DNA of 50,694 nt from Planctomycetes bacterium UBA1146 (GCA_963694575.1 CAVOEM010000001.1:1-50694), one strand, 5' to 3'; counted from the stretch's first letter, positions 7,761 through 47,007 are shown. The notes: generated from the letters alone by a model not told the origin. A program made the numbers and translations.

Positions 7761-8798
7761 TCACGCCCCGATGATGGGGAAGGGATCGCCAGGCTGAGGT
7801 GGAGGGGCTCCGTCGATCCCGAGGGACCTGCAGAGGCTCGCCACTTCACTGACCTGCTGTGAGGTCGTACCCATCGATAATTCGATGACCCGGAGATCAT
7901 CGTCGGCGAAACCACTGAACTGCGGATGAAGATCGAGTTGGCCGTCACCGAGGTTGACCAGCGAGCCGTCGAGCAGATCGCGAAGGTAACAGCCAGCGAC
8001 CCTCGCCGGATCTTCGGCTAGTGGATCGACCGTCTCGCGGCCTTGCAAGATCGCCAGCGATTGCGCCGCAGCGGGATCGGCGATCCAGTGCAACGGAGCT
8101 CCGTGGAAAATCTGGTACAATTCAAGGAATCCGCTGCGGTCGGGCAGTCCGCCGATGCGATCCGATTCACGCAGTGCCATGGAGATGCCCAGCTCGGAAG
8201 CACGCTCGAGCGCCGGGTCGAGACTTCTCAGCAGCGCATCTCGCGACTTCTGTTGGCGATGCTGTGCCGCCAAATCCGGCCGGGTCAGTGCTGCCAACTG
8301 CTGTCGCTGCTGATCGATCCAGCGCACCACCTGTGCTGCGGTTTGCGGATCGTCGGGGGATCGGCTCCGGTCGATCTTCTGCTGCGTCTCGTCGATCACC
8401 TGCTGACATTCGGCGGTCGGGTCGTGCCCCCCTGGATCTGCGGGAGAGAGGATCACCCGTTCCAGCTGGTGGCGATCGGCCAGTTCGAGGGCGTCGAGCA
8501 GAGAAACTTGCGCTGCGAGCCGCTCGGACTGGTCGAGGGCCGCCAGCGAGGGGCAGCAGCGGCGAGGTTGTCGCTGTTTGGCACCGTCGAATGCCCGGCT
8601 GGGACCGGGGCGTGGTGCCTCCAGAGCGGTCACCTGGTGGCCCGCACCGTCGACCTCCTGCACCAGCGCGGCGATCTGTCCGCGCTCAATCTCGGCTCCA
8701 ATCACGATCCCGGGAATTTCGCCATCGAGGAGCCAGCGGACCTGTTCGGCCAGCGAGAGTCGGGAAGAAGGGAGCAGGGCGGTGGAGAGGCTGAGCAA
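7761..8798 (-). CDS. hypothetical protein, possibly xylose-isomerase-like TIM-barrel (sugar phosphate isomerase/epimerase) family
   Basis: 345-aa ORF with coding-like composition. The C-terminal half (ASELGISMALRESD..LHWIADPAAAQ..AGCYLRDL) weakly resembles AP-endonuclease-2/TIM-barrel proteins. The function call is tentative. Confidence 0.6.
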   Translation of the reverse strand: MLSLSTALLPSSRLSLAEQVRWLLDGEIPGIVIGAEIERGQIAALVQEVDGAGHQVTALEAPRPGPSRAFDGAKQRQPRRCCPSLAALDQSERLAAQVSLLDALELADRHQLERVILSPADPGGHDPTAECQQVIDETQQKIDRSRSPDDPQTAAQVVRWIDQQRQQLAALTRPDLAAQHRQQKSRDALLRSLDPALERASELGISMALRESDRIGGLPDRSGFLELYQIFHGAPLHWIADPAAAQSLAILQGRETVDPLAEDPARVAGCYLRDLLDGSLVNLGDGQLDLHPQFSGFADDDLRVIELSMGTTSQQVSEVASLCRSLGIDGAPPPQPGDPFPIIGA

Positions 8799-8939
8799 GG
8801 AGTTCCTTTCTGACGGGTGGATCCTAGCCCCGGAGAGGGCTCAGGCGAAGGGTACTCCCGTTGGACTGGAGACCAAGCCGTGAAGATGTATCCTCAGGTC
8901 TCGGGAGGAGATCCATTGGAACCCAACGATATCTCGAAA

Positions 8940-9563
8940 ATGGAGCCGGATCCCCGGTCGATCCACCAGGAATTGGTTCGTTACCTCGGGGAGAGTCAGC
9001 AGGCGCTGCAAATGATCGATGCGGAAGCGGTCGGGCGCTTCACCGCCAGCGTGATTCGCTGCTGGGATGAAGATCGACAACTTCTGCTCTTTGGAAATGG
9101 CGGCAGTGCAGCGACCGCGACCCACCTGGCGGAGGATCTGGCGACCTATGCGATCCCCTTCTCCGAGCCAAAGCGGCTGCGAGTTCTGTGTCTCAATGAC
9201 AGCCCTTCCATCATCACTGCGCTGGGAAATGACCTCGATTTCGATGCGATCTTTCTGGAACAGGTGCAGCAATGGGCTCGTCCTGGAGATCTGGTCCTGA
9301 CGATGAGCGGATCGGGAAACTCCTCCAACTTGATCGCTGCGATACAAAGAGCCGAGCAACTGGGTTGTGAGACCGCAGCGATGACCGGTTTTGATGGCGG
9401 AGAGTTGAGAGGGCTGGTCGACCATCCGTTACATGTCGAGGTGCACCAGATGCAGCCCGCCCAGGATGCTCACATGGTGATGGCTCACATGATCATTCAC
9501 GCCTTCAGGGTCGCAGTCCGAAATGTACTCGCCCAGCGCACGACGGGATCCTCCGGATCTTGA
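8940..9563 (+). CDS. gmhA: D-sedoheptulose-7-phosphate isomerase (SIS domain)
   Basis: Motifs LLFGNGGSAATATHLAEDL, TMSGSGNSSNLIAAI and QDAHMVMAHMI. ATG at 8940 gives the family-typical length (about 52 aa before GNGGS). The track ORF extends upstream to GTG 8817. Confidence 0.85.
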   Translation: MEPDPRSIHQELVRYLGESQQALQMIDAEAVGRFTASVIRCWDEDRQLLLFGNGGSAATATHLAEDLATYAIPFSEPKRLRVLCLNDSPSIITALGNDLDFDAIFLEQVQQWARPGDLVLTMSGSGNSSNLIAAIQRAEQLGCETAAMTGFDGGELRGLVDHPLHVEVHQMQPAQDAHMVMAHMIIHAFRVAVRNVLAQRTTGSSGS

Positions 9564-13618: not shown

Positions 13619-14134
13619 ATGAGGGCGATACTATTGATCTCATCCTTGATCCCGGGGCTCGGGCCGATCCTGCTCGGACGGATCTATCGCGGCTTGTTAC
13701 TGCTGGTCCTCGGTGGTGGGGGTTGGGCGATCCTGGCGGCAGGATCGACGGTATGGGCCGGTCCCGATCGGTGGCAGGCACAATTGAGCGGTTCCGTGGT
13801 GGGAGTGATCGCCACCCTGATCAGTGTTCGCTGGACTCTCCGGTTGACCTCTGATGAGCGACGCATCGCCATCCGCAAGAGGGTCGAGAGGGCCCTCGAC
13901 GATGCTCAGCGCTGCTATCTCAGAGGAAGAATGGCAAGAGCTCGGGTGGCTCTCGATAGTGGATTGACCCAGGATGAGAGAGATATCGACCTGCTCTTCC
14001 TCGACTGGCAGGTGGCGAGAAAACTGGGAGATTCCTCACGAGCTCGTCGCAGTCGTCGCTTGTTGAGGCGATATGATCTCGATGAAAAGTGGTTGTGGGA
14101 GTTACAACGTGAGGAGGCCACTCGTGGCGGATGA
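13619..14134 (+). CDS. small membrane protein (two TM segments plus Arg-rich helical tail)
   Basis: MRAILLISSLIPGLGPILLGRIYRGLLLLVLGGGGWAIL, then a charged C-terminus. ATG at 13619 chosen because upstream residues overlap the thiE start region. Confidence 0.55.
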   Translation: MRAILLISSLIPGLGPILLGRIYRGLLLLVLGGGGWAILAAGSTVWAGPDRWQAQLSGSVVGVIATLISVRWTLRLTSDERRIAIRKRVERALDDAQRCYLRGRMARARVALDSGLTQDERDIDLLFLDWQVARKLGDSSRARRSRRLLRRYDLDEKWLWELQREEATRGG

Positions 14135-15215
14135 GATACCGGTAGAACCGATCGCCAAGGGACTCACTTATCGTGATGCGGGTGTCGATATCGATGCGGG
14201 CAACGAAGTGGTCGGGCGGATTCGAGATGCGGTGGTATCGACCCAGGACGATCGGGTGCTGAAGGGTTCACATGGAGCCTTCGGTGGGTATTTTCGTCTG
14301 CTCGATGGAGCCGGCTCGTTATTTGGTCAGCCACTGAAGGATCCGATCCTCGTCGGAGCCACCGATGGAGTCGGAACCAAGTTAAAGGTGGCGTTCGAGT
14401 GCGGGGTTCTTGATACGGTCGGCATCGATCTGGTTGCGATGTGTGTCAACGATTTGATTGTCGGTGGAGCACGACCGCTATTTTTTCTCGACTATGTCGC
14501 CACCGGTAAGATCTCTCCCGAATCGATCGCAGTGGTGGTGGAGGGGATCGCTCAGGGATGCCGGCTTTCCGGTTGCGCTCTGCTAGGCGGTGAAACCGCA
14601 GAGATGCCAGGATTTTATAAAGATGGAGAGCTGGATCTGGCCGGCTTCGCCGTGGGTGTGGTGGAGCGAGAGTCCATCATCGATGGCCAGAAGGTGGTGG
14701 CAGGGGACGCAGTCATCGGGATCGCCTCGAGCGGGGTCCATTCGAACGGCTTCTCACTGGTGAGAAAGGCGCTGCTCGACGAGGGGAGCGCGCTGCCGCT
14801 CGACCAGGATCCAGCAGGACTTGGCTGCACCCTCGCCGAAGCACTCCTCGAGCCGACCCGCATCTATGTCCGACCGATCCTCGATCTGATCGAGCGAGCG
14901 GGCGAGGAACTCCACGCCATCGCGCACATCACAGGGGGTGGTTTGCTGGAAAACATTCCCAGAGTGTTGCCACAGGGATTGGGATGCCATCTCGATCGCT
15001 CGTGCTGGCAGCGGCCACCGATCTTCTCGTTGATCGAACAACGAGGGGGAGTCGCCACCGATGAGATGGATCGAGTGTTCAATCAGGGGATCGGCATGGT
15101 GATCGTTGCGGCTGCGGGGTCGGAGACCGCCATCATCGAGAGCCTGACTCGATCGGGGGAGCAGGCTTCGGTGATCGGGGAAATCGTCGCGCAAGATGGC
15201 GTGAAGATCGAGTAG
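14124..15215 (+). CDS. purM: phosphoribosylformylglycinamidine cyclo-ligase (AIR synthetase)
   Basis: LTYRDAGVDIDAGN, GTDGVGTKL, GGETAEMPG and the rest of the PurM fold. GTG 14124 is preceded by GAGGAGG (14111-14117); the track ORF begins at 14073. Confidence 0.9.
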   Translation: MADEIPVEPIAKGLTYRDAGVDIDAGNEVVGRIRDAVVSTQDDRVLKGSHGAFGGYFRLLDGAGSLFGQPLKDPILVGATDGVGTKLKVAFECGVLDTVGIDLVAMCVNDLIVGGARPLFFLDYVATGKISPESIAVVVEGIAQGCRLSGCALLGGETAEMPGFYKDGELDLAGFAVGVVERESIIDGQKVVAGDAVIGIASSGVHSNGFSLVRKALLDEGSALPLDQDPAGLGCTLAEALLEPTRIYVRPILDLIERAGEELHAIAHITGGGLLENIPRVLPQGLGCHLDRSCWQRPPIFSLIEQRGGVATDEMDRVFNQGIGMVIVAAAGSETAIIESLTRSGEQASVIGEIVAQDGVKIE

Positions 15216-20894: not shown

Positions 20895-20920
20895 CCTGGA
20901 TCCGGAAACGAGTGAGAGTG

Positions 20921-20953
20921 ACGGCCCCGGGGTTTCCTCGGGGCCGTTTTTTT
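20921..20953 (+). terminator. rho-independent terminator of the MFS gene
   Basis: ACGGCCCCGGGG-TTT-CCTCGGGGCCGT forms a 12-bp stem (one G-U) followed by a T7 run. Confidence 0.85.
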
Positions 20954-21019
20954 GGTGATGTGAGGCATTGCTGGGAACGGCCGGTGGGCTGGCTGCGTCC
21001 ACTGGGGGAGGAGACCTCG

Positions 21020-22015
21020 ATGAACCGATGGAAGCCGTTGCTGATCGCCCTGTCCCTCTCCTCGACACTCCTGCTGGCCCAGGAGGCCGCTCGGGAACCC
21101 GCTCAGGTCCCCGCGCAGGTCTCCGCTCAGGTCCCCGCGCAGGTCTCCGCGCAGGTCTCCGCTCCGGTCTCCGCTCCGGAGCAGTTCCACTTCTCGTCGC
21201 TGGGAAAATCACTGCCGGAGTTGAAACTCGAGGAGGGCGATCGCTGGTTCAACGCCACCAAGGGCCTCTCTGTCGCTGCATCACCTCTCACTGTATTGGG
21301 GCGTGGCAAGCCGCTGCTGGTCGCCTATACGATTCCTGGCTGAGAGTGTTGTGCTCCGGCATTGCCCAGCCTGGTCAGGTGGCAGCAAGAAGTGGGACCC
21401 GAGTTCTTGTCGATGATGACTGTTTTCAGTTACTCGTCCAGGCAACCGGAACTGGTCCAGAAATTCATCGACAAGAACCAGGTGACCTTCCCCATCCTGT
21501 CGGAGCAGGCCAGCAACATCGAGCGCCACGGCGTGAAGGGGTTCCCTTCCGCCTTCTTCCTCGATTCCACAGGCAAGGTGATCTGGCAGGGGATCCTGCC
21601 CCGTGCCTTCGAGTCCAATGACTATCAGCGCCCCTGGCTCGACGGTCTGTTGCGTCAGGCAGGAGTCGAACCGCCGCCGATTCCCATCCGTTGGCTCGAT
21701 TTTGACGAGGGAGTCGAGGAATCGCAGTGGACCTCGGAGACTCGACTGATCTTCGTCGAGGCGAACCGATGTGATCAGTCGGAGCGGATCGAACGATTAT
21801 TGGCACAAGATGAAGAGATCGCAGGTCTGCTCAACGATTACATCCGGGTCAAGATCGATGGTCGAGCTCAGTTGGATATCGTCAAGAAGTACCGAGGCCA
21901 CTGGCCCGGAGATCTGCTCATCATCGATGCCAAGGACCAGGTGCTCTATCGATTCCGGGACCACTACAAGGACATCCCTGCGCTCAAGAAGGCGCTCTAC
22001 GATCACGCCAACTGA
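21020..22015 (+). CDS. secreted TlpA/ResA-like thiol-disulfide oxidoreductase, candidate selenoprotein (UGA 21341-21343 read as Sec), with a second thioredoxin-like domain
   Basis: ATG 21020 follows GGGGGAGGAG. Signal peptide MNRWKPLLIALSLSSTLLLAQ. Track ORFs 20912..21343 and 21362..22015 are in the same frame, separated only by TGA plus 6 sense codons. Read-through gives GKPLLVAYTIPG-U-ECCAPALPSL, which aligns column-for-column with WC-xx-C-xxx-x-P-x-L of TlpA (U on Cys1, C at +3, P at +8). Downstream FPILSE..HGVKGFPSAFFLDSTGKVIW completes the fold. The C-terminal domain carries CDQS. If the TGA is not recoded, this is a split gene or pseudogene. Confidence 0.6.
21095..21178 (+). repeat. coding 12-bp tandem repeats (GCGCAGGTCTCC-like) encoding an (A/P)QVS/PAQV linker
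   Basis: EPAQVPAQVSAQVPAQVSAQVSAPVSAP, directly after the signal peptide of the Trx-like protein. Confidence 0.85.
21362..21385 (+). promoter_or_regulatory. candidate bacterial SECIS hairpin
   Basis: UUGCC-CA-GCCU-GGUC-AGGU-GGCAG. Hand-paired as 9 bp (two G-U), with a 2-nt 5' bulge and apical loop GGUC starting about 30 nt after the UGA. That is within the 16-37 nt spacing, and the loop begins with G, as in published bSECIS models. Not energy-evaluated. Confidence 0.4.
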
Positions 22016-22036: not shown

Positions 22037-23641
22037 TCAGGGGCAAGCAGCGCTGGTGGTCGGGCAGTCGAGAGTGTTGCCGAGCGGATCGGTCCCGCAG
22101 GTCGGGTATGGAGCATCCAGAGGGGGAGAACCGGGGACAAAGAGTGCATTCAACCCGTAGACCATGTCTGCGATGTTGAAACTACCATCATCATTGATAT
22201 CGCAACTCTCGATGCAATTCGGAGATACCCCTCCCGGCACGAACAGCGCATTGAGCCCGTACACGATGTCCGCAACATTGAAACTGCCATCTTCGTTGCC
22301 ATCTCCGCGGATGAATCGAATCACCGATCCAGAGGAACCGTTGTGATAGATCAATGAATAGGGTGGGACCCCCGGAATCTCGCGCAGCTGGTAGGTGACA
22401 TCGAGACTGAAGGAAGTGTTGTTGAAGGCGGGGTACAGCGTGCCTCGGATGGTCGGATAGATGTAGGCGTGCTGGCCGAGTGTGGTCGGTTGTAACTGCT
22501 CGACCACCTCGAACTCGGGGGAGGTGGCGAGTTTTTGTGCCAGCACCAGATCGCCTTCGTTGGCGAGGTCTCGGTACACGGCATGGACCGTGCCGGAGGT
22601 CTCGTCGCAGCCGATGTTAAAGATCTTGTAGTTGGCGATGTTGGTGACCTGGTCGCTGCTGGCATCGAACAGAGTGGTCTCGTCACTCCAGCCATTGATT
22701 TCGTCCCACCTGCGGTAGCGGAAACTCCACAGCGGCGAGCCGGAGGCGGCGTCGACGACATAGGCACTGTGCACATTTCCAAGCGCATCGCTGGAGAGCC
22801 AGCCGAAGTAGTCATTGCTGCCGGTGGTATTGCCGAGCACGAAGGTATCTGCCTGCCAGCCGGCGGCCCCCGATGGTCCGATGGTCGGGTCGTAGATGCG
22901 GTGCTCGTAGACCCCCGGTGGGGTGTTGCGATAGAAACTGCAATGGATGCGGCCGCTGTCATCGACCGCCAGACGCGTGTTCTGGGCACTGGCCGAGGGA
23001 CTGAAAGCCCCCAGGTCGGTGAAGGAATCATCTGCCGCGTAGGGTTGATCGCTACGCAGCAGGTGCTCGACCCAGCTGGAGGGGTGGTGCCCCGAGATCC
23101 ACACCGTGTTGTTGCCATCGATGACGATGTCCATCGCCGAGGTGCGAGCATTGAGTGGGGCACCGGTGATGGTGCTGATCTCGATGATGTCGGAACGGTC
23201 GCCGGTGGCGGGATCGAAGCGGCGGTAAAACTGGCGAAAGTACGACGGGTAGGTGTACCGACCCCACAGTACGTGGAGGATCCCCTGGTCATCGATGGCG
23301 ACCGAGCATTGGCTGGCGGGATCGGGATCGAACAGGCCACTGTCGTCGTCGTTGAGATTGGGCGGCTGGGTCCACCAGGTGGCACCTCCATCCGAGGAAC
23401 TCTGGACAATCAGAGCCATCTCGTCGGCGGCATTTCGCTCCAGAGAGACACAGTGAAGCACGCCATCGTCATCGCGAACCATGTTGTGCGAGGTATTCGA
23501 TCCAGACGAGGCCATCTCATCGCTGTGCAGGATCACCTGAGCCGAGGACATCACGCTGCAGCAGAGCAGCACAAGCGATGCGAGAATGCCAACGATGGTT
23601 CTCCTCGGGTGCGGGTAGTGGTCCATCATCCCGTTCTTCAT
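22037..23641 (-). CDS. secreted six-bladed beta-propeller (BNR/Asp-box, sialidase-like fold) with C-terminal dockerin-like/Cys-Pro module
   Basis: Signal/TM IVGILASLVLLCCSVMSSAQ. One Asp-box (SSSDGGATW) and six recurring D-D-x-G-x-x-H blade motifs (DDDGVLHCV, IDDQGILHVL, VDDSGRIHCS, DALGNVHSAY, ETSGTVHAVY..). 92-aa tail FIRGDGNEDG..CPTTSAACP. The start ATG overlaps the upstream gene's stop (TGATG). Confidence 0.8.
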   Translation of the reverse strand: MKNGMMDHYPHPRRTIVGILASLVLLCCSVMSSAQVILHSDEMASSGSNTSHNMVRDDDGVLHCVSLERNAADEMALIVQSSSDGGATWWTQPPNLNDDDSGLFDPDPASQCSVAIDDQGILHVLWGRYTYPSYFRQFYRRFDPATGDRSDIIEISTITGAPLNARTSAMDIVIDGNNTVWISGHHPSSWVEHLLRSDQPYAADDSFTDLGAFSPSASAQNTRLAVDDSGRIHCSFYRNTPPGVYEHRIYDPTIGPSGAAGWQADTFVLGNTTGSNDYFGWLSSDALGNVHSAYVVDAASGSPLWSFRYRRWDEINGWSDETTLFDASSDQVTNIANYKIFNIGCDETSGTVHAVYRDLANEGDLVLAQKLATSPEFEVVEQLQPTTLGQHAYIYPTIRGTLYPAFNNTSFSLDVTYQLREIPGVPPYSLIYHNGSSGSVIRFIRGDGNEDGSFNVADIVYGLNALFVPGGVSPNCIESCDINDDGSFNIADMVYGLNALFVPGSPPLDAPYPTCGTDPLGNTLDCPTTSAACP

Positions 23642-26034
23642 CAGGGACAGGCCAGATACAGGGCGCAGTCAATACCATCATCGGTCGGATCGACGCCGCA
23701 ATCGAGAGCGCCCGGCGCCGGTGGATTGTCCGATCCCGGCACGAACAGTGCGTTGAGCAGGTAAACCGCATCGGCGACGTTGTTTCCGCCGTCGTCATTG
23801 ACATCTGCACTGTCGATACAATCGGGCTGGGGCGATCCAGGAACGAACAGGGCGTTGAGCAGGCGGATGGCATCGGCGATGTTGACACCGCCATCGACGT
23901 TGACATCCCCACGGCGGAACAGTTCCGGTGGTGGACCGCTACTGGCTCCGAGAGCATCGAGGTAGAGGCCCATCAGGAGACCCTGCTCGCCGCTGTAGCC
24001 ACCGAACTCCCACGACTGCGCGATCACCTCGCCAAACGGATCATCGGTCTCGTAAAAGTTACCGACGCTGTAGCCGATGCCCGATTGGACCCAGATGGAG
24101 CCGCTCGAGGCTCCCGCCAGGTCCGGCGTGAGGGGATCTGCGGTGACCAGCCGATCGGTCCAGTCGCTGGCCGCCTGGTCCTGGTTGTATGCGGCATCCA
24201 TTCCGGTCATATCAAGCGTGGCATAGGAACCACCGATCAAGTCCAGTAACGAGTCGTCGCCATCGACCACTCCCAGTCCGATCCCGTCATAATCAGCGAA
24301 GGAAGTCTGGGCACAGTATCCCCACACATCGCCGCCCTCGATGTAGACATCGATGCCGTTGGCGATCAGGTCCGCCAGCAGTTGACCTTCTGCAGTGCTC
24401 AAGCAATAATGATCGGGATAGGTGCCAGTGGCCACCCAGACCCGCTCGAGGGTTGGCGTGTCGAGTAGACAATCACAACCGAGGATGTCCGTCATCATTG
24501 CCGGGGCGAGCCCGTTGAGCACCAGCGCATCGGCGATCGCCAGTGCCGAGTCGATCTGACCACCACTCCCTTCAGCGGCCCACACCAGATCGATGGCATT
24601 GACCAGTGCCCAGATAGCATTTCCATCGATGACACAGCAGGGGGTGACCGAGTCGTCCCAGCAGCGCAGCTGGTAGTGGTAGGAAGCGGGTCCGCCGGGA
24701 AGGACATCGGTCCACTGCTGATCACTTCCAGCCAAGGTCTCAGCGAGCTGTCCATCGCGATACACATCGATGCTGGTGAAGTTGTTGCCGTTGAGGTCCC
24801 AACTGAGAGTCACTTCATTGCCACTGGTGGCGGCGGTGAAGTCGATGGGAGGGGTGAGCTGACAGGGCGGGCCACTACGATGGTGGATGGCCCATGCCTC
24901 GAGATCTCCAAATTCGCCCCCGGTGTAGTCGGCCGCGATCAGGCGCCAGTTTCCATCGATGGGGAAGCCGGCAAAATCGGCGAGGGTGCCGGGCCCCTGA
25001 GGTTGCATGCGGATGTTGAGTGGAATCTGGTCCTCATCGAAGGGGATTCCCTGGTCATCAAAGATGGTGTGAATGTGATTCACATCGCTGGGAGACCCGG
25101 GGATGTACTGTTTCAAGGTCACCATCGTGGCCGATGGATGCGTCAGGTCGATCCCCACTTCTCGAGTCCAGGTGTGAGTGATATGGACCTCGATATCGAT
25201 GTCCTGAATCGTGTAGTTGTCGGTGATGTTGATCACCGAGGTGACTCCCGTCGGGGTGCTGTTGGGAATCGGCAGTGGCGTGTCGAGACTGCCGTAGATC
25301 TCGAATCCATGGGGGACATCAATTCGGTCGGTGAAATCGAAGCAGGCGCCGTCAGAGACGACGATCAGATAGTTGTAGGCTCCCTGGCAAAGATTGTTGT
25401 CGGTCCAACTGGTCGCAGCGGGGTCGGCGATGTCCTGGTAGAAGACCCCGTCACGCCAGATCTGAAAAGTGTCGGTGTATGGACCATTGTTGGTGAACTC
25501 GAGGGTGATGTCGGGACCCACCGAGGACGCCACCAGCGCGTCAGGTGCGGTGAGACCACACGGCTCCAGTTCGAGGAGACCATAGGTACTGACATTGTTG
25601 GCGATCTCGTTGATGTCATTCCACAGGTAGGGGGAGGCCTCGAGGGTGTGGACCATGTCCTCGTTGTTGGAGTTGTTGGGTTCCCCGGCATTCCAGTTGC
25701 TGTACACCAGCGGTTCGCCGTTGCTCCATTCGAAGACACCCTCGACCGCGATGTCATTGAGACCCAGCCACAAGCGCCGTGAGGAGCCGCCAAAGTTTCT
25801 GAAGTTGTCCGCGATGAAATCCATCTCCGCCTGGTCTGCAACGGCCACGAGGTTACCGCCCCAGCTGTTGGCGAGAGTTTCAGCAGTGGTCCAGTCGCTG
25901 GTATCCAGCAACAGGTAGTGATGGTCATCCAGCGGACTGGAGATGCTGGTCAGGATGGCCGGATCCTGAGCCTGCAACGGAGTGACCCAGATGGTGATGA
26001 TCAGTAAAGAGACTACGGAATTGAGAAACTTCAT
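23641..26034 (-). CDS. secreted C-type lectin domain / proprotein-convertase P-domain protein with C-terminal dockerin-like/Cys-Pro module
   Basis: RBS GGAGG. Signal MKFLNSVVSLLIITIWVTPLQAQ. CTLD: LWLGLNDIAVEGVFEWSNGEPLVYSNWNAGEPNNSNNEDMV..LWNDINE. P-domain: IDIEVHITHTWTREVGIDL..IDGNWRLIAADYTGGEFGDLEAWAI. 92-aa tail FRRGDVNVDG..CALYLACP. Confidence 0.85.
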   Translation of the reverse strand: MKFLNSVVSLLIITIWVTPLQAQDPAILTSISSPLDDHHYLLLDTSDWTTAETLANSWGGNLVAVADQAEMDFIADNFRNFGGSSRRLWLGLNDIAVEGVFEWSNGEPLVYSNWNAGEPNNSNNEDMVHTLEASPYLWNDINEIANNVSTYGLLELEPCGLTAPDALVASSVGPDITLEFTNNGPYTDTFQIWRDGVFYQDIADPAATSWTDNNLCQGAYNYLIVVSDGACFDFTDRIDVPHGFEIYGSLDTPLPIPNSTPTGVTSVINITDNYTIQDIDIEVHITHTWTREVGIDLTHPSATMVTLKQYIPGSPSDVNHIHTIFDDQGIPFDEDQIPLNIRMQPQGPGTLADFAGFPIDGNWRLIAADYTGGEFGDLEAWAIHHRSGPPCQLTPPIDFTAATSGNEVTLSWDLNGNNFTSIDVYRDGQLAETLAGSDQQWTDVLPGGPASYHYQLRCWDDSVTPCCVIDGNAIWALVNAIDLVWAAEGSGGQIDSALAIADALVLNGLAPAMMTDILGCDCLLDTPTLERVWVATGTYPDHYCLSTAEGQLLADLIANGIDVYIEGGDVWGYCAQTSFADYDGIGLGVVDGDDSLLDLIGGSYATLDMTGMDAAYNQDQAASDWTDRLVTADPLTPDLAGASSGSIWVQSGIGYSVGNFYETDDPFGEVIAQSWEFGGYSGEQGLLMGLYLDALGASSGPPPELFRRGDVNVDGGVNIADAIRLLNALFVPGSPQPDCIDSADVNDDGGNNVADAVYLLNALFVPGSDNPPAPGALDCGVDPTDDGIDCALYLACP

Positions 26035-26278
26035 AACTCCTCCGGAGGGCTGGAGAGATTGGAAATTGTAGGGACAGAGCCATTTACCATTTTCCCCTTC
26101 ATCGACCGGGATACAAGGATTGAAAATAAGGGCCGCAGGGAGCCGAATAACCGGTGCAGGAGGCGGTTGAGTGGGCTTCTGCCTCGCTCTCGCGGCTCAT
26201 CCGTGGCTGTGGAAGCGCTTTTATGGCGGCGGCTGGGTCGAGGATGAGGAACGGCTCAGAGTGGCTCAGATCGAGTTG

Positions 26279-26344
26279 GGCCTGCTCGAACTGGATCTAA
26301 ATCGAGCAGGCCGTGGACCCCTTCCGATCGATCGAAAGGGGTCC
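26279..26344 (-). terminator. two consecutive perfect hairpins downstream of the 26367 gene
   Basis: GGCCTGCTCGA-12 nt-TCGAGCAGGCC (26279-26312) and GGACCCCTT-12 nt-AAGGGGTCC (26315-26344). They start about 25 nt past the stop of the minus-strand gene. No clear U-tract. Confidence 0.5.
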
Positions 26345-26366
26345 GCGGCGTCTCTTGACCCGAGAA

Positions 26367-28787
26367 TCAGGGGCAAAGGTTGAAGGAAGTACATCCGAGC
26401 CCGCCGGGCCCATCGGGGCCACAATCGGGGAAAGGTGCCGCTGGCTCGGATCCACCTGCGAACATGTAGCCGATCAGATGCACCACATCGGAAACGTCGA
26501 CCTGATTATCCCCGTTATCATCGAGGCTTGCCAGACAACTCACCGGTGATCCATTGAAGAGGAAGCCGAGGGTGTTGACCGCATCGCTGACATCGAGGCT
26601 TCCATCAATATTGGTATCGCCACGGATGTAGGTGACGGCTCCGCCTCCTCCACATTCATCGGGAGTGCCATCGCCATCATTGTCGGCGCTGGTCCCGTTC
26701 GCGATATCGCACTCATCGAGGACACCATTGAGATTGCAGTCATTTGCTGCAGTGATCTCACAGCCGTCGTGAATACCATTACCATTGCAGTCTGGAATTC
26801 CTGCTCCGGCGATGGAGATGTCGAGTCCCCAGGTCTGAAGGGAACCGGAATCTCCTCCGGCATTATCCGAGATGGTAAGGGTCCAGTTGCCCAGACCGCT
26901 GGCTCCATCGAAAGTGGACAGTGGCGAGGCAGGAGGAGTGGATCCTGGGCTGCCATCGTCGTCGTAGATCGCGTTGATGTCATCGGAAGAACCGCCAGTC
27001 TGGCTGTGCAAGTTGACGGTGGTGCCGGAAGGATTGGCCACCGAGATGGCGAGATCGCCGATCCAGGTGTGAGTCAGGTCTAGCGCCACATCTATATCGT
27101 CGACCAGTCCTACCTGTGTGACCTCGATGATCCGGATCACCGGAGGCAAGTTGTCGGCGATCGGCGCCGGCGGGGAGACATTGTCGACATAGGAGAAGAT
27201 TCCTGCAGCCTCACAGATATCGAGAACTCCGTTGGCATCGCAGTCTGTGGCGGGATTCGCTGCGATCTGGCAACTATCGATGGACCCGTCGAGATCGCAG
27301 TCCGTTTCGCTTCCCAGGTCAATTTCACAACTGTCGAGCACTCCATCAAAGTCGCAATCCGCTGCACCTGAAGAGATCTCGCAGGTGTCAGGGATGAAAT
27401 TCCCATTGCAGTCGAGTGCGCCATTGATCAGTTCACAGGCATCGGCAATTCCGTCGTTGTCACAGTCTTCCTGGCATTCATCGAGCAGTCCATTTCCATC
27501 GCAATCGGATGCGCCGTTGGCGATTTCATCCCCATCTGGAATGCCGTTATTGTTGCAATCGAGATTGCCGACCATCGGAGCGAGGGTGGTCACCAGCAGA
27601 GTGTCCACGGCACCGGGTTGGAACAGCCCGAGAGTCGCATTGGCAGCGGTGGGTGGAGAGGTGGTCACGAAGCGGAAGTTGTACATCGTTCCCCAACGAA
27701 GTGCGTTGGCGTTGGGGTTCTGTGCAAAGGTTTGAGTCGACCAGTTGATTTCCCCGTTGGCGGTAGACACCGCCCAGTCGGTTCCATCGTAGATCTCGGT
27801 GCTGTGGTACTCGACATCGCGGAAACCGACATCGCTGGCGATCACACCCAGCAGCGGCACGGAGAAACTGCGTACCGCGCGGGTCGAGTCCATGTTGTAA
27901 AGAGCGTACTCGTATCGCCACAGGTTGGCATTCAGTTGGATGACCTTGTATCCGAGGATCAAGAGTCCGTCTCCAGCGTCCGAGATGTCGACCAGAGTCA
28001 CAGTCGGATCATTGTCTTGCCACGCCTGGATGCCTGGCTGTTGCCGCTGGGTCGATCCAACAAAGGTGATGGCGTGATTGGAAGTGGAGGAGGAGACGGA
28101 GACCTGTCGGTAACTGGTGTTATTGTGATGATTGCCTGCGGCAGCATCGTCGGGGGTGACATAATGTCCCTCGACGAAGTACTGGGCTCCAACATTGGTC
28201 GACGAGTCCAGGTCACTCCCGTGAACGCGCAAGCGACGCCAGGTCAGATCACTGTTGCCGGGGTCGAGGTTCTGCGGATAGATGAATCCACCGTGGGCCG
28301 GATCGGTCACCTCTGAGCGAGCGCCGAGGCTTCCCTGGCTACCATTCAAACTGGCTCCGTAGGGATCGGAGCAACCGACCCCGAGCCGGCTACCGGTTCC
28401 CGAAGAGACGCAGCCGCAACCACAGGTGTTTCCCTGCAAAGCGGTGAATCCGTGCTTGAGCCAGCTCATGCCGATCTGCTCGAGCACTCCATCCTTGAGG
28501 CGAAACATGTTTTGACCGATCACCGGGTGCTGATTGGTATTGGAGATCCAGAGCAGTTCCTCGGTGCCGATGTTGCAGGATGTGGTTCCCACTGAATAAG
28601 CGTAATAGCCGCCCGCTGAACCGTAACTCTGGGTGCCGGTCAACTCACCGACGATCACATCCGCTCCGGTGCCACCGAGGCCTCCGCCCGGATCACACTG
28701 GGCGTCGAGAGAGGTGGAGAAGAGCATCGTCATGGCTGCAGCAAGAAGGGAGAGGATCCCGAGGATCCGCTGCTTGGAAAGTGTCAT
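26367..28787 (-). CDS. large secreted protein: uncharacterised about 400-aa N-terminal domain, DCNGNG-type Cys/Asp repeats, P-domain, C-terminal dockerin-like/Cys-Pro module
   Basis: Signal MTLSKQRILGILSLLAAAMTMLFSTSLDAQ (ATG 28787; the track ORF runs to 28826). N-domain with a CGCGC motif. At least 10 repeats such as DCNNNGIPDGDEI, DCDGNGLLDECQ, DCNGNFIPDTCEI. P-domain DIDVALDLTHTWIGDL..GNWTLTISDNAGGDSGSLQTWGL. 87-aa tail YIRGDTNIDG..CTSFNLCP. Confidence 0.85.
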   Translation of the reverse strand: MTLSKQRILGILSLLAAAMTMLFSTSLDAQCDPGGGLGGTGADVIVGELTGTQSYGSAGGYYAYSVGTTSCNIGTEELLWISNTNQHPVIGQNMFRLKDGVLEQIGMSWLKHGFTALQGNTCGCGCVSSGTGSRLGVGCSDPYGASLNGSQGSLGARSEVTDPAHGGFIYPQNLDPGNSDLTWRRLRVHGSDLDSSTNVGAQYFVEGHYVTPDDAAAGNHHNNTSYRQVSVSSSTSNHAITFVGSTQRQQPGIQAWQDNDPTVTLVDISDAGDGLLILGYKVIQLNANLWRYEYALYNMDSTRAVRSFSVPLLGVIASDVGFRDVEYHSTEIYDGTDWAVSTANGEINWSTQTFAQNPNANALRWGTMYNFRFVTTSPPTAANATLGLFQPGAVDTLLVTTLAPMVGNLDCNNNGIPDGDEIANGASDCDGNGLLDECQEDCDNDGIADACELINGALDCNGNFIPDTCEISSGAADCDFDGVLDSCEIDLGSETDCDLDGSIDSCQIAANPATDCDANGVLDICEAAGIFSYVDNVSPPAPIADNLPPVIRIIEVTQVGLVDDIDVALDLTHTWIGDLAISVANPSGTTVNLHSQTGGSSDDINAIYDDDGSPGSTPPASPLSTFDGASGLGNWTLTISDNAGGDSGSLQTWGLDISIAGAGIPDCNGNGIHDGCEITAANDCNLNGVLDECDIANGTSADNDGDGTPDECGGGGAVTYIRGDTNIDGSLDVSDAVNTLGFLFNGSPVSCLASLDDNGDNQVDVSDVVHLIGYMFAGGSEPAAPFPDCGPDGPGGLGCTSFNLCP

Positions 28788-28937
28788 GGGTTCCCTTTCG
28801 GGGTCATCTCTGACCACGATGTTCAATCGACGGGCCTACCCATTGTATTGTCAAGAAAAGGTCGGATCGAGGAGCGATTTCAAATCAACGGGAGCAGAAT
28901 CGCAGGGAAGTCAGGAGAGTGACCTGTAGAGGGATGG

Positions 28938-40317: not shown

Positions 40318-42228
40318 ATGAATTTGTTATGGATCCTGTTTCTGTGGCCGGGGCTGAACCTCACCCCAGCACCCACCAGTGACCTCGTCAGCGACCTGGA
40401 AACCCATCTCACCGTCGGCTTTCCACTCGTGTCCCGTTCTCTGGCGCCGGCACTACCTGCTGCGATCTGTGCACTGGAGTCGGGGGGCTTCGCACTGCTG
40501 ACCGAACGTCCGGCACGCTTGCGCTTCCTCTCTTCGGCTGGAACGCTCAAAGATGAATCGTGGCCCTTGCCGGATTTGTTTTCCAGTCCTAGAGGGATAC
40601 AACCACTCCGCAGAGGACACTTCATCATCATCGATCGTGCCGGTCATGTGGGAGAGATCGACCGCCAGGGAAAACTGGTGAGGATGTTGCCGGGCCCCGA
40701 GGGACGGTGGCAAGCGGGCGCACTGTCGAGGGCTCCTGGAGGAGTGGGCTGGTTGGTCACGGACTTGCTCCACGGACGGTTGCACCAGCTCGACCTGGAT
40801 GGAAATGTGCATCAGAGTTGGAGCGGGTTCATCGAACCGACTGGGGTCTGCTCGGTCGGAGACCACATCTGGGTCAGTGATCGTGGATGGCACCGCCTGA
40901 TCCGGTTTGATCCTCGTTCGCAACAACCGGATCCGCAGCAAGGGATCGGCGACCATGGAGCGGCTCCCGGATTACTCGCTTCGCCGATGGGTTTGTGTGC
41001 AGTCGAGGATCAGTTCCTCTGGGTCAGTGATCGTGACAATCACCGGGTGCAGTTCTTCAACGGCCGTGGCTTCTCGATGCATTACTTCGGGATTCACTCG
41101 ATGCTCCCTCGAGAAGCGATGGGACGATTGCACTATCCGACCGCCGTCGCCTATGACGAGAAGGCGGCGATCGCTGCAGTCATCGAACCGAGCGAGCGCA
41201 GGGTGCAACTGTTCGGGGTGAGGGATCCTGAGGTGGCGGTGGCCGCCGCAGAACTATGGCAGCGCGTCGACCTGGTCTCTCACTATGGACGCTACTGGGC
41301 GATCCAGCCTGGAGGGCGGCTGCTGGTCGTCTCGGAACCGGATTCGGAGCGGCTCTCGGTACTGGTGAGGGATCTGGAGATCCCCTTCGAACTGGATGAT
41401 GTCGGCGGCGCTGGGTCGGCTCCGGGTCGTTTCCGGACACCGATGGGGGTCGATTTCTTGCCGGGGAATGATCCGTCGCGCTGGGTGGTGGCGGACCGAG
41501 GAAATCAGCGACTCCAGATGTTCCAGATCACCTGGAAGGAAAAACCATCGTGGCGTCGAGAGCCCGCCCTGGTGCAATTGGTGCGTACCGTCGACATGGC
41601 CCGGTTGGTTCAACAGCATTCTCCATGGCAATCTTCTGTGCCGCCTCGACTGGCGGCGCTGGCCTGTGGCGAGGGTGGCATCATCGCAGTCGCCGATGAT
41701 GCCAACGAGAGGATCCTGCTTCTCGACCGGAGATTTCGCCCGGTCGGTCAATTCGAGTCGGCCGGACTGTTGAAGGAAGCGACCGCCATCTCGGCGGATG
41801 GAAATGGATTCCTGGTGGCGGATGCCATCGGTGGAGCATTGCTGAGATTCGAACCGGGACAGTTGCAACCGGAGGTGATCGATGGCGACTGCCGGATGCC
41901 GGTCGGAGTCGATCGTCACCCCGATGGTTCCATCTGGTATACCAATGGAGCCAATCATTCGTTGTTGAGAATCCCACCTGGAGGAGGGAAAGCGCAGACG
42001 ATTCTCGGTGGCGGTGGAACCGGAGAGCGACAGTTGTTTCGGCCGCGTGCGGTCCGCATCGATGAGGACGGATCGGTCTGGGTGCTGGATCATGGTAATC
42101 ATCGTGGAGTGGTGATCGATCAGGACGGTGCACTGCGCCACTTCGGAAGTGAACCGTATCTCCCCGATGGCGGGGTCCGGATGCGCCAGTTGAAATTGCA
42201 GCAGAAAAAACTTCAGGAGCAGCGATGA
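40318..42228 (+). CDS. NHL-repeat beta-propeller protein (secreted)
   Basis: Repeated NHL-type blades (..PMGVDFLPG..WVVADRGNQRLQMF.., ..PRAVRIDEDGSVWVLDHGNHRGVVID..). Hydrophobic N-terminus. Confidence 0.75.
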   Translation: MNLLWILFLWPGLNLTPAPTSDLVSDLETHLTVGFPLVSRSLAPALPAAICALESGGFALLTERPARLRFLSSAGTLKDESWPLPDLFSSPRGIQPLRRGHFIIIDRAGHVGEIDRQGKLVRMLPGPEGRWQAGALSRAPGGVGWLVTDLLHGRLHQLDLDGNVHQSWSGFIEPTGVCSVGDHIWVSDRGWHRLIRFDPRSQQPDPQQGIGDHGAAPGLLASPMGLCAVEDQFLWVSDRDNHRVQFFNGRGFSMHYFGIHSMLPREAMGRLHYPTAVAYDEKAAIAAVIEPSERRVQLFGVRDPEVAVAAAELWQRVDLVSHYGRYWAIQPGGRLLVVSEPDSERLSVLVRDLEIPFELDDVGGAGSAPGRFRTPMGVDFLPGNDPSRWVVADRGNQRLQMFQITWKEKPSWRREPALVQLVRTVDMARLVQQHSPWQSSVPPRLAALACGEGGIIAVADDANERILLLDRRFRPVGQFESAGLLKEATAISADGNGFLVADAIGGALLRFEPGQLQPEVIDGDCRMPVGVDRHPDGSIWYTNGANHSLLRIPPGGGKAQTILGGGGTGERQLFRPRAVRIDEDGSVWVLDHGNHRGVVIDQDGALRHFGSEPYLPDGGVRMRQLKLQQKKLQEQR

Positions 42229-42710
42229 CCGAATTTGACAGTGATCCCTCGGCATCATCCGAGAGTCCAGGCTGCATCATCCTGGTGCTGGTGGTCTTCT
42301 CCTTGCTGACCGGACTGTTGATGCTGCTGTTCTTCGCTGGCTGCCAGGCTCCACCCACAGCGGTGGCACCTCAGGGTCCAGGGTGGAAATCGCTGATCAG
42401 CGCCGATGGGACCTACCAGGTGATGCTCTACATTCCCGATCCCACACCACTCAATCAGGAGTTCACCGCCCAAGGTACCGTGTTCAAGGACGGGGAACCC
42501 ATCTCCGAAGATGTCGAGGTGGTGTTCGATGGCGGCATGCCGCAGCACGCCCACGGGTTGGCGGTGCCGGTCGAGACGATCCGTCGTCCGGCGGGAGGAT
42601 TCGCTGCTGCAGGGGTCCGATTCCACATGGGAGGACGTTGGTTACTCACGGTAGATATCATCGAAGGGCCTCATCTGGAACGTGCCAGAGGCTGGGTGGA
42701 GATTCGATGA
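42225..42710 (+). CDS. membrane-anchored YtkA/FixH-like domain protein
   Basis: ATGA overlap with the NHL gene. One TM segment (CIILVLVVFSLLTGLLMLLFFAGC), then an Ig-like domain with DGGMPQHAHGL and FHMGGRWLLTVDI, which fits the YtkA-like pattern. Confidence 0.65.
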   Translation: MTEFDSDPSASSESPGCIILVLVVFSLLTGLLMLLFFAGCQAPPTAVAPQGPGWKSLISADGTYQVMLYIPDPTPLNQEFTAQGTVFKDGEPISEDVEVVFDGGMPQHAHGLAVPVETIRRPAGGFAAAGVRFHMGGRWLLTVDIIEGPHLERARGWVEIR

Positions 42711-43993: not shown

Positions 43994-44100
43994 GGTGTGA
44001 GAGGTGGTTCTCAGGGCATATAATGGACCGATACCGTCAAGGTCCCGCTAGTTACTCATCTCGAGTGCCCTTTCGGGGGCGACTTTTCACGGAGGCTTCC

Positions 44101-46542: not shown

Positions 46543-46571
46543 GAGACGATGGGTTCGTGAGCAAGGGGGGA

Positions 46572-46685
46572 TAGATCGAGCGCTGTGGTAGATCGAGCGC
46601 TGTGGTAGATCGAGCGCTGTGGTAGATCGAGCGCTGTGGTAGATCGAGCGCTGTGGTAGATCGAGCGCTGTGATAGATCGAGCAC
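46572..46685. repeat. 17-bp tandem repeat x6.7 (TAGATCGAGCGCTGTGG)
   Basis: Five perfect copies, one with a single change, and one partial. Begins 30 nt after the stop of the 44101 gene. Each unit contains the palindrome AGCGCT. Confidence 0.95.
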
Positions 46686-46733
46686 ACCCTGCTGGAGAAG
46701 GCTTAACTCTCGTTTTTACCTCAGCATATTTTT

Positions 46734-46776
46734 CTCGAACGCTTTTTTCGCTCAATGGGCGAGGGAAGCGTTCGAG
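46734..46776 (+). terminator. long hairpin (11-bp perfect stem CTCGAACGCTT / AAGCGTTCGAG) followed by a T-rich tract
   Basis: The stem arms are separated by 21 nt, followed by TCAATTTTATAT. Lies downstream of the repeat array, in an AT-rich gap. Confidence 0.5.
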
Positions 46777-47007
46777 TCAATTTTATATCTCACTTTCTCT
46801 ACAGGGGCATCTCGAACTAAAGCAAGAATCGGTGTCCGTCGCATCGCTGCCGCTCCATCACGAATTCACAGAATCTGAAGTATCTCAAAAGAGGTGTTTT
46901 CAGAGCGTAGAGATGACCATTGAACTTCCATATAATTGCTCTCTTCAGGTGATGGTGCACTCGATTTGCACATGTATAGCGGATTCCAATAATAGGATTT
47001 AACCAGC

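What the first reader, a model, noticed from the sequence alone, without database searches (positions are those of the whole stretch)
21020..22015. In-frame UGA on the first Cys of a TlpA-like CxxC motif: candidate UxxC selenoprotein split into two ORFs
Seen in sequence:
- Track ORFs 20912..21343 and 21362..22015 share a reading frame. They are separated only by TGA (21341-21343) and six sense codons.
- Read-through gives ..GRGKPLLVAYTIPG-U-ECCAPALPSLVRWQQEVGPEF..FPILSEQASNIERHGVKGFPSAFFLDSTGKVIWQG.
- Against the TlpA/ResA/DsbE pattern (GKpvlvnFWAsWC-G-P-C-r-a-E-m-P-x-L ... FPvl.D ... ygv.g.PttflID..G.i), the TGA falls exactly on the nucleophilic Cys, with Cys at +3 and Pro at +8.
- A hairpin (21362-21385: 9 bp, 2-nt bulge, GGUC loop about 30 nt from the UGA) sits where bacterial SECIS elements are found.

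Established knowledge: Sec-for-Cys substitution in thioredoxin-fold redox motifs is the most common type of bacterial selenoprotein.

Inference: this is a periplasmic two-domain (UxxC plus CxxS) oxidoreductase, not a pseudogene. Standard gene callers would mis-annotate it.
Basis: partly seen in the sequence, partly recalled or inferred. Interest (0 to 1): 0.8.

Follow-up and report, generated by a model that had tools for sequence, protein, structure and literature searches.

The report
Split gene is a selenocysteine oxidoreductase
Two adjacent "genes" in this marine Planctomycetota contig are really one secreted, thioredoxin-fold redox enzyme whose active-site residue is selenocysteine encoded by UGA; it is a real but fairly ordinary kind of selenoprotein that public annotations split in every copy I examined.

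Summary
ATG 21020 to stop 22015 is one frame of 331 codons, interrupted only by TGA at 21341-21343.

- **Conservation:** every relative recovered from independent assemblies keeps TGA in that column. This covers 15 distinct gene sequences at 49-98% identity, a 40% ortholog, and three single-domain cousins. No TGC or TGT was seen.
- **Coding on both sides:** dN/dS is 0.18-0.36 on each side. The six codons between the TGA and the annotated downstream start vary synonymously.
- **Sec/Cys pair:** with the position masked as X, it aligns to the first Cys of CxxC in solved StoA and TlpA-like structures. It also aligns to about 40 Cys-containing homologs.
- **SECIS:** the hairpin at 21362-21385 meets all four published bacterial SECIS criteria: GGUC loop, 29 nt from UGA, 4 bp upper stem, -8.4 kcal/mol. 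It is the most nucleotide-conserved stretch of the gene.
- **UGA is otherwise a stop:** TGA ends 18 of 32 ORFs taken as genes in the window.
- **Not shown:** selA, selB, selD and tRNA-Sec are absent from this 50.7 kb contig, and the rest of the genome could not be searched.

Verdict: a new, mis-annotated member of the known class of UxxC TlpA-like selenoproteins, fused to a CxxS Thioredoxin_7 domain.

The parts
20920..20948 (+). Intrinsic terminator (13-bp stem followed by a T-run) of the upstream MFS transporter gene. It makes the selenoprotein gene its own transcription unit.
   Evidence: sequence
21007..21011 (+). Shine-Dalgarno core GGAGG, 8 nt before ATG 21020
   Evidence: read directly
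21020..22015 (+). Complete selenoprotein coding sequence: 331 codons plus the TGA stop at 22013-22015, with one in-frame Sec-UGA
   Evidence: dN/dS 0.18-0.36 on both sides of the UGA
21020..21085 (+). Signal-peptide-like N-terminus (MNRWKPLLIALSLSSTLLLAQE..). The end point is approximate. All orthologs have an equivalent hydrophobic N-terminus.
   Evidence: inference, no signal-peptide predictor was run
21087..21176 (+). 12-nt tandem repeat, about 6.5 copies, encoding a [PS]AQV linker. Copy number varies between close relatives.
21269..21601 (+). TlpA/ResA/StoA-like thioredoxin-fold domain (residues about 84-194). It spans the UGA.
21341..21343 (+). UGA codon read as selenocysteine (U108). It aligns with the N-terminal nucleophilic Cys of CxxC.
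21341..21352 (+). Redox motif U-E-C-C (U-E-x-C in the family). The Cys at +3 is invariant and uses both TGC and TGT.
21362..21385 (+). Bacterial SECIS hairpin. It has 4+4 bp with a 2-nt 5' bulge and a closing U-G pair. The apical loop GGUC is at 21373-21376, 29 nt after the UGA. It encodes L-P-S-L-V-R-W.
   Evidence: criteria from PMC13188914
21692..22012 (+). C-terminal Thioredoxin_7 / AGR2 / DsbH-like thioredoxin-fold domain
   Evidence: (2kuc)
21770..21781 (+). Monothiol motif C251-D-Q-S (C-x-Q-S/T in all orthologs), aligned to CGPC of PDB 2kuc

Best explanation
Window 21020-22015 is a single gene for a secreted, probably periplasmic, two-domain thiol/selenol-disulfide oxidoreductase.

During translation the UGA at 21341 is recoded as selenocysteine. 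The hairpin at 21362-21385 lies inside the coding sequence, with its GGUC loop 29 nt past the UGA. It acts as a bacterial SECIS element that recruits SelB-GTP-Sec-tRNA(Sec) to the approaching ribosome.

The product carries a U-E-x-C selenylsulfide redox centre at the start of helix alpha1 of a TlpA/ResA-like thioredoxin fold. A Thioredoxin_7-like domain with a monothiol C-x-Q-S motif follows.

Shown here:
- one conserved reading frame across the UGA;
- the Sec/Cys pairing;
- conservation of the UGA and of the hairpin;
- the fold assignments.

Inferred:
- SelB-dependent decoding;
- export to the periplasm;
- the reductase or isomerase role.
For: 1. A single frame with one TGA.

2. Only about 217-aa C-terminal fragments exist in protein databases. 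On the DNA, every locus has an upstream ORF in the same frame ending in TGA 18 nt earlier. These are 15 distinct sequences at 49-98% identity, all from marine Planctomycetota MAGs or metagenomes, plus a 40% ortholog.

3. The six 'intergenic' codons are translated. E109 and C111 are invariant. C111 uses TGC 10 times and TGT 5 times. P113 uses three codons.

4. dN/dS is 0.18-0.36 both upstream and downstream of the UGA.

5. With X at the UGA, phmmer aligns it to the first Cys of CPPC in StoA (3erw) and of CSIC in 4evm. The cis-Pro region also aligns. A profile of the family hits StoA, DipZ, ResA and DsbE at E = 1e-6 to 8e-4. Pfam thioredoxin-fold matches span the UGA.

6. About 40 Cys homologs carry CxxC in the same register. 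Near relatives of the single-domain Sec forms are among them.

7. All four bSECIS model criteria from PMC13188914 are met. The loop is 4 nt, the upper stem 4 bp, the loop starts GG, the spacing is 29 nt, and the energy is -7.7 to -8.4 kcal/mol.

8. The hairpin codons AGC CTG GTC AGG TGG are invariant in 15 of 15. Only 10 of 58 invariant four-fold-or-more degenerate amino-acid columns use a single codon, and 4 of those 10 are these consecutive codons. This is the most conserved 21-nt window of the gene.

9. The same ACCUGGUCAGGU core sits 29 nt after a TGA in single-domain relatives L025, L026 and L028. Cys forms relax LVRW to LVEW, LVKW, LERW or LQQW.

10. TGA is the commonest ordinary stop in the window: 18 of 32 ORFs taken as genes.

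11. The exact allele occurs on at least 8 contigs from several metagenome assemblies.

12. Some Planctomycetes are reported to have complete Sec machinery (PMC4807772).
Against: - No selA, selB, selD or tRNA-Sec is present in the 50.7 kb contig or in any fetched flank. The rest of the genome could not be searched.
- The hairpin is invariant, so there is no informative covariation. 276 of 500 shuffles reach the observed score.
- Its folding energy is unremarkable against shuffles.
- It matches no Rfam SECIS family.
- Three of the four Pfam matches fall just below their gathering scores.
- No second selenoprotein gene was found in the window.
- There is no experimental evidence of selenium incorporation.
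Confidence: 0.9

Rival explanations
1. Two separate genes. In this reading a small secreted 107-aa peptide ends at TGA, and an independently initiated 217-aa cytoplasmic 'thioredoxin family protein' starts at TTG 21362. This is how public records annotate the locus.
For: Gene callers call it this way in every database copy. A start-type codon (TTG, ATG or GTG) lies at or near the equivalent position in most orthologs.
Against: - The thioredoxin fold would be cut between strand beta1 and the active-site helix. Pfam and PDB alignments run straight across the TGA.
- The six codons in the 'gap' are conserved as amino acids with synonymous variation.
- The two pieces are always in the same frame and exactly 18 nt apart.
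- The downstream piece would lose both the signal peptide and its catalytic residue.
- Different callers pick different downstream starts, giving 200, 207 or 217 aa.
Confidence: 0.03
2. Pseudogene or sequencing/assembly error: a TGC or TGT codon was mutated or misread to TGA.
For: One nucleotide separates TGA from TGC or TGT. MAG contigs can carry errors.
Against: - TGA is present in all loci recovered from JGI, ENA, NCBI and Logan assemblies, across 40-98% protein identity.
- No ortholog has TGC or TGT in that column.
- Both halves are under purifying selection.
Confidence: 0.01
3. The UGA is read through, but not as selenocysteine. Examples would be near-cognate Trp, Cys or Arg insertion stimulated by the downstream hairpin, or a lineage-specific UGA reassignment.
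For: The Sec machinery was not demonstrated for this genome. Downstream structures can stimulate read-through in other systems (my own knowledge, not checked here).
Against: - TGA terminates 18 of 32 ORFs taken as genes in the window, so there is no global reassignment.
- The UGA sits exactly on the catalytic Cys column of a CxxC motif, which is the classic Sec/Cys pair.
- The hairpin fits the SelB-type bSECIS model in loop sequence and spacing.
- Trp, Arg or Gly at that position would inactivate the redox centre.
Confidence: 0.05

Closest known systems
[quoted passage not shown] Sources: Sargasso Sea and GOS surveys and the 2026 review (PMC1088965, PMC2398784, PMC13188914).
   Same: A TlpA/redoxin-type thioredoxin fold. 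Sec replaces the first Cys of CxxC. The setting is marine bacteria. A bSECIS lies immediately downstream. Cys homologs are widespread.
   Different: I could not fetch the reference accessions (for example MGB1650493.1 and HEU0032618.1), so identity with any one of these families is untested. This protein has an extra C-terminal Thioredoxin_7 CxxS domain. Within the two-domain clade no Cys ortholog was found in the two protein searches. It matches none of the NCBIfam selenoprotein models.
Cys-type extracytoplasmic reductases TlpA, ResA, StoA, CcmG/DsbE and the DipZ C-terminal domain (PDB 3erw, 2hyx, 1st9, 3gl3)
   Same: Best sequence and profile matches. The register G-K-x-x-L-x-F-W-x-x-W-C-x-x-C-x-x-x-x-P is shared. 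The cis-Pro region G-x-P-[ST]-x-F-x-x-D is conserved. The N-terminus is an export signal.
   Different: U-E-x-C replaces W-C-x-x-C, and the Trp before the motif is Gly. Similarity is weak, with E values from 1e-6 to 1e-3. The electron donor and the substrate are unknown.
E. coli fdhF-type bacterial SECIS and the general bSECIS model (Zhang and Gladyshev model as summarised in PMC13188914)
   Same: A stem-loop in the coding sequence just 3' of the UGA. The apical loop is small and begins with G-G/U. A 5'-side bulge sits below the upper stem. The spacing falls within 16-37 nt. From memory, the fdhF minimal hairpin also has a GGUC loop.
   Different: The sequence is otherwise unrelated. There is no Rfam SECIS match. 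Here the hairpin is locked to a conserved peptide, (S/H)-L-V-R-W, shared by a wider clade of TlpA-like selenoproteins.
Thioredoxin_7 proteins with a CxxS motif (AGR2/AGR3) and bacterial DsbH or 'putative disulphide isomerase' 2kuc/3fk8
   Same: The C-terminal domain matches PF13899 at 27.4 bits against a cut-off of 27. It aligns to 2kuc with CDQS on CGPC. The model's best fold matches are AGR2, 3fk8 and DsbH.
   Different: The structural model is only moderately confident in this domain (pLDDT 62-89) and poor elsewhere. No function can be transferred from it.

Membership tests
Bacterial selenoprotein gene (Sec-UGA plus bSECIS) | In-frame UGA with conserved, selected coding sequence on both sides | tested here: met
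   dN/dS is 0.18-0.36 on both sides.
Bacterial selenoprotein gene (Sec-UGA plus bSECIS) | The UGA aligns with a conserved, catalytic Cys in homologs (Sec/Cys pair) | tested here: met
   An X-masked query aligns to the first Cys of CPPC (3erw) and CSIC (4evm). About 40 Cys homologs share the register.
Bacterial selenoprotein gene (Sec-UGA plus bSECIS) | UGA-containing homologs in other organisms or independent assemblies | tested here: met
   15 of 15 distinct orthologs, plus L023, L025, L026 and L028. The same allele is on at least 8 contigs.
Bacterial selenoprotein gene (Sec-UGA plus bSECIS) | Downstream stem-loop fitting the bSECIS model: 3-9 nt loop, 4-16 bp upper stem, G in the first two loop positions, 16-37 nt spacing, energy <= -7.5 kcal/mol | tested here: met
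   Loop GGUC, 4 bp upper plus 4-5 bp lower stem, 29 nt spacing, -8.4 kcal/mol (-7.7 in L009). Criteria are quoted from PMC13188914.
Bacterial selenoprotein gene (Sec-UGA plus bSECIS) | selA, selB, selD and tRNA-Sec in the same genome | not testable with these tools
   None is present in the 50.7 kb contig or the fetched flanks. The window is the whole contig, and other contigs of the MAG cannot be queried.
Bacterial selenoprotein gene (Sec-UGA plus bSECIS) | Selenium shown in the protein (75Se labelling or mass spectrometry) | not testable with these tools
   Requires an experiment.
TlpA/ResA-like thioredoxin-fold oxidoreductase (cd02966; PF13098, PF08534, PF00578) | Sequence match at the family's curated threshold | tested here: inconclusive
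   Thioredoxin_2 scores 26.3 against 27, AhpC-TSA 24.3 against 26, and Redoxin 21.6 against 26.6. The family profile hits StoA, DipZ and ResA structures at E = 1e-6 to 5e-4.
TlpA/ResA-like thioredoxin-fold oxidoreductase (cd02966; PF13098, PF08534, PF00578) | A CxxC-type motif after strand beta1 and a conserved cis-Pro loop | tested here: met
   U-E-C-C aligns on C-P-P-C, and GFPSAFFLD aligns on ITIPTSFLLN of 3erw.
TlpA/ResA-like thioredoxin-fold oxidoreductase (cd02966; PF13098, PF08534, PF00578) | Extracytoplasmic location (signal peptide or membrane anchor) | not tested
   A hydrophobic N-terminus with basic n-region is present in all orthologs. No predictor was available.
Thioredoxin_7 (PF13899) | Match at the gathering score | tested here: met
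   27.4 bits against a cut-off of 27, residues 225-282. Supported by the 2kuc alignment and the fold matches.
NCBIfam-curated thioredoxin-like selenoprotein families (such as VPGUxxT NF041383, Trx7/PDZ NF041199, GOS_C NF045500, SaoT NF040730, HUIPC NF047660) | HMM match | tested here: not met
   An NCBIfam scan of the read-through protein (U replaced by C) at E <= 1 returned only StoA, ResA and a weak Bcp match, all far below their cut-offs.

The most novel reading that the evidence does not exclude
The two-domain protein (UxxC TlpA-like plus CxxS Thioredoxin_7) may be an obligately Sec-dependent periplasmic oxidoreductase family confined to deep-sea and OMZ Planctomycetota. No Cys ortholog was found in the two protein searches. 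Its SECIS is fused to a conserved (S/H)-L-V-R-W peptide. That coupled RNA/peptide module may be ancestral to a much wider, largely unannotated clade of TlpA-like selenoproteins. The protein may also work with the invariably adjacent secreted dockerin / P-domain proteins.
Probability: 0.3. Interest if true: 0.5.

Novelty: new member of a known kind. Interest (0 to 1): 0.35.

Why it matters
Every copy of this gene I examined in NCBI, JGI, ENA and Logan is annotated as two fragments, a 107-aa 'hypothetical protein' and a truncated 'thioredoxin family protein'. The catalytic residue and the export signal are therefore separated from the enzyme.

Recognising it adds a Sec-utilisation marker to an uncultured marine Planctomycetota lineage. 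It also adds a well-supported two-domain member to the TlpA-like selenoproteins.

It gives a clean example of a bSECIS hairpin that constrains the encoded peptide. LVRW is invariant in Sec forms and relaxed in most Cys forms. The motif U-x-x-C-x4-P-[SH]-L-V-R-W together with CCUGGUCAGGUGG could be used to rescue many other split genes. About ten further truncated fragments of roughly 100 aa appeared in the representative search.

Tried and rejected
- **Sec machinery in the window.** The AIRS-domain gene at 14073-15215 looked like a possible selD but is PurM. The 636-aa ORF at 40318-42228, which is SelB-sized, is an NHL-repeat protein. No tRNA-Sec was found in the window or in 22 fetched loci.
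- **A second selenoprotein in the window.** A crude scan for ORF pairs joined by TGA gave only spurious high-GC ORFs. The 8043-8813 / 8817-9563 pair is an unassigned ORF followed by a SIS-domain gene. The hairpin core has no other meaningful match in the window.
- **Covariation in the hairpin.** This was uninformative because the stem is invariant.
- **Rfam SECIS families.** No match, even at E <= 10.
- **Full-length structure prediction and profile search.** The C-terminal 223 residues were used instead. The resulting model is poor for domain 1 (pLDDT below 50) and only moderate for domain 2.
- **Hairpin control.** I wanted the DNA of the one Cys homolog that keeps LVRW (P0048), but it was not available.
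- **Global UGA reassignment.** Rejected on stop-codon usage.

Full report
**Observation**

The window carries ATG at 21020, preceded by GGAGG at 21007-21011. A strong terminator of the upstream MFS gene lies at 20920-20948. From that ATG one frame runs 331 codons to the stop at 22013-22015. It is interrupted only by TGA at 21341-21343. The context is ..GRGKPLLVAYTIPG-TGA-ECCAPALPSLVRWQQEVG... It is UGCC, a 2-nt bulge, GCCU, loop GGUC, AGGU, GGCA, plus a closing U-G pair. All stated coordinates and residues check out, including Cys at +3, Pro at +8 and the CDQS motif at 21770-21781.

**Is it one gene?**

Pfam thioredoxin-fold models align straight across the TGA: Thioredoxin_2 over residues 94-194, AhpC-TSA over 84-189 and Redoxin over 96-194. 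A Thioredoxin_7 match covers residues 225-282.

The word-indexed search of 5.8 billion protein clusters returned only five relatives. All are about 207-218 aa, which is the C-terminal piece alone. The exhaustive HMMER search of 1.84 billion representatives found only two close representatives, both truncated at the same point.

Fetching the DNA showed that every one of these loci has an upstream ORF in the same frame ending in TGA exactly 18 nt before the annotated start. Scans of GTDB genomes and JGI metagenomes added 15 more loci. The genome hits are all marine Planctomycetota MAGs: SI037S4_bin26, ANT-12, UBA1146, NAT2, OC6_2000m and others. All 15 carry TGA in that column.

Across 15 distinct sequences (49-98% identity over the aligned region) the column is TGA in 15 of 15. 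A 40% ortholog (L023) also has TGA. The motif is U-E-x-C, with x being C, S, R, E or H.

The six codons between the TGA and the annotated downstream start are translated. E and C are invariant. The Cys uses TGC 10 times and TGT 5 times. The Pro uses three codons. dN/dS against three close relatives is 0.18-0.36 both upstream and downstream of the TGA.

The exact 107-aa N-terminal allele occurs on at least 8 contigs from several JGI and ENA metagenome assemblies. That excludes an assembly error.

**Sec/Cys pair**

I masked the position as X to avoid bias. phmmer against PDB sequences then aligned X to the first Cys of CPPC in StoA (3erw) and of CSIC in 4evm. The +3 Cys fell on the second Cys, P116 on the conserved Pro, and GFPSAFFLD on the cis-Pro region. 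A profile of four orthologs hits StoA, DipZ, ResA, DsbE and YkuV structures at E = 1e-6 to 8e-4.

Among the distant hits, about 40 carry CxxC in the same register. Examples are P0012 (CQHC), P0048 (CKRC..VPHLVRW), P0089 (CGGC) and P0066 (CNGC).

**SECIS**

The published bacterial SECIS model (PMC13188914) requires four things:
- a 3-9 nt apical loop on a 4-16 bp upper stem;
- a G in the first two loop positions;
- 16-37 nt between the UGA and the loop;
- a folding energy of -7.5 kcal/mol or lower.

The hairpin here has a GGUC loop and a 4-bp upper stem with 4-5 further pairs below a 2-nt bulge. Its spacing is 29 nt and its energy is -8.4 kcal/mol, ranging from -7.7 to -8.4 in orthologs.

The stem is invariant, so covariation counts say nothing either way. 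The only changes keep pairing: U-A to U-G in L009, G-U to A-U in L023, and U-A / U-G / G-C at the closing pair.

The real evidence is synonymous-site conservation. AGC CTG GTC AGG TGG is identical in 15 of 15 sequences. Only 10 of 58 invariant amino-acid columns with four-fold or greater degeneracy use a single codon, and four of those ten are these consecutive codons. The hairpin is the most conserved 21-nt window of the whole gene (0.975 against a mean of 0.726).

The same core, ACCUGGUCAGGU, lies 29 nt after a TGA in three single-domain TlpA-like relatives from other assemblies: L025, L026 (GCA_016197205.1) and L028 (GCA_044233465.1). Their motifs are U-G-G-C, U-G-S-C and U-E-N-C, each followed by P-H-L-V-R-W. 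Their nearest Cys counterparts have LVEW or LVKW instead. So the hairpin, and not the protein alone, appears to fix LVRW in Sec forms.

No Rfam SECIS family matches. That is not surprising, because the review describes predicted bacterial SECIS elements as showing little resemblance to one another.

**What is not shown**

TGA is the most common ordinary stop in the window, ending 18 of 32 ORFs taken as genes. UGA is therefore not globally reassigned.

The Sec machinery could not be checked. The contig has only tRNA-Thr and tRNA-His. The AIRS-domain gene is PurM, not SelD. No SelA or SelB appears among the other ORFs. The window is the entire contig. Some cultured Planctomycetes are reported to have complete Sec machinery (PMC4807772), so the trait is plausible in the phylum.

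**Architecture and likely function**

The protein, from N- to C-terminus, consists of:
- an N-terminal signal-peptide-like segment, present in all orthologs;
- a variable [PS]AQV tandem-repeat linker;
- a TlpA/ResA-like domain with U-E-x-C;
- a proline-rich connector, VEPPPIPIRW;
- a Thioredoxin_7-like domain in which CGPC of 2kuc is replaced by an invariant C-x-Q-S/T.

An AlphaFold model of the C-terminal 223 residues is poor for the truncated first domain and moderate for the second (pLDDT 62-89). Its best fold matches are AGR2/AGR3, 3fk8 and DsbH.

I infer a periplasmic reductase or isomerase that uses a selenylsulfide centre. The donor and the substrate are unknown.

The gene is monocistronic. 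Its synteny is conserved: an MFS transporter upstream, then a convergent protein of about 530 aa with dockerin-like repeats, and two proteins of about 800 aa with P_proprotein, C-type lectin and dockerin domains. This hints at a link to secreted Cys-containing proteins, but it is not evidence of one.

**Comparison with what is known**

Sec-for-Cys in thioredoxin-fold UxxC motifs is the commonest type of prokaryotic selenoprotein. The following families are already listed as predicted selenoprotein families (PMC1088965, PMC2398784, PMC13188914):
- 'Thiol-disulfide isomerase-like' (cd02966);
- 'Thiol:disulfide interchange protein' (PF13098);
- 'Redoxin family' (PF08534);
- 'Prx-like' UxxC proteins.

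This gene matches none of the NCBIfam selenoprotein HMMs. No database entry found here holds the read-through protein. Within the two-domain clade no Cys ortholog was found. The only two-domain Cys homolog seen (P0093, CPPC, 24% identity) has a degenerate second domain.

**Verdict**

I classify it as a new, systematically mis-annotated member of a known kind, with a domain fusion as its distinguishing feature. My confidence that this is a Sec-decoded single gene is about 0.9. Interest is moderate to low, because the type is expected. Its value lies in correcting annotations and in the conserved SECIS/peptide module.

Noticed in passing
window 21087-21176: A 12-nt tandem repeat of about 6.5 copies encodes a [PS]AQV linker between the signal peptide and the mature selenoprotein. 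Copy number differs among close relatives: L018 has two more units, and L008 and L009 have none.
   Followed up: partly
window 46572-46683 and 46543-50694: A 17-nt tandem repeat (TAGATCGAGCGCTGTGG, 6.6 copies, 98% match) follows the choice-of-anchor-B gene. The last 4.1 kb or so of the contig has no ORF longer than 211 aa and slightly lower GC (0.51-0.59). The Rfam gathering scan found nothing there.
   Followed up: partly
window 22037-28826 (- strand); same arrangement in L001, L002, L004 and L023: Synteny next to the selenoprotein gene is conserved. There is a convergent 534-aa protein with no Pfam or NCBIfam hit but with C-terminal dockerin-like DxNxDG repeats and a Cys-rich tail. Two proteins of about 800 aa follow, with P_proprotein, C-type lectin and Dockerin_1 domains, then tRNA-Thr and a XerC-like integrase.
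   Followed up: partly
L025 54-; L026 about 1483-; L028 about 1128- (loci from other assemblies): A wider clade of single-domain TlpA-like proteins carries U-x-x-C-x4-P-H-L-V-R-W with the same CACCUGGUCAGGUGG hairpin 29 nt after a TGA. Each is also annotated as two ORFs. About ten further fragments of roughly 100 aa that start right after the motif appeared in the representative search (P0015, P0027, P0028, P0033, P0047, P0049, P0058 and others). They are probably more split selenoproteins.
   Followed up: partly
window 8043-8813 and 8817-9563 (+): Two ORFs in the same frame are separated by TGA and one codon. The second is a SIS-domain protein, followed by a HAD phosphatase, which is a GmhA/GmhB-like pair. 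The first has no family match, and three overlapping ORFs compete for that stretch. This is probably ordinary adjacent genes rather than a second recoding site.
   Followed up: partly
window 42383-43993 and 44023-46542 (+): A MauG/MbnH-like di-heme peroxidase gene sits next to a large choice-of-anchor-B protein with dockerin-like C-terminal repeats. This is another secreted redox and cell-surface gene pair on the contig.
   Followed up: no
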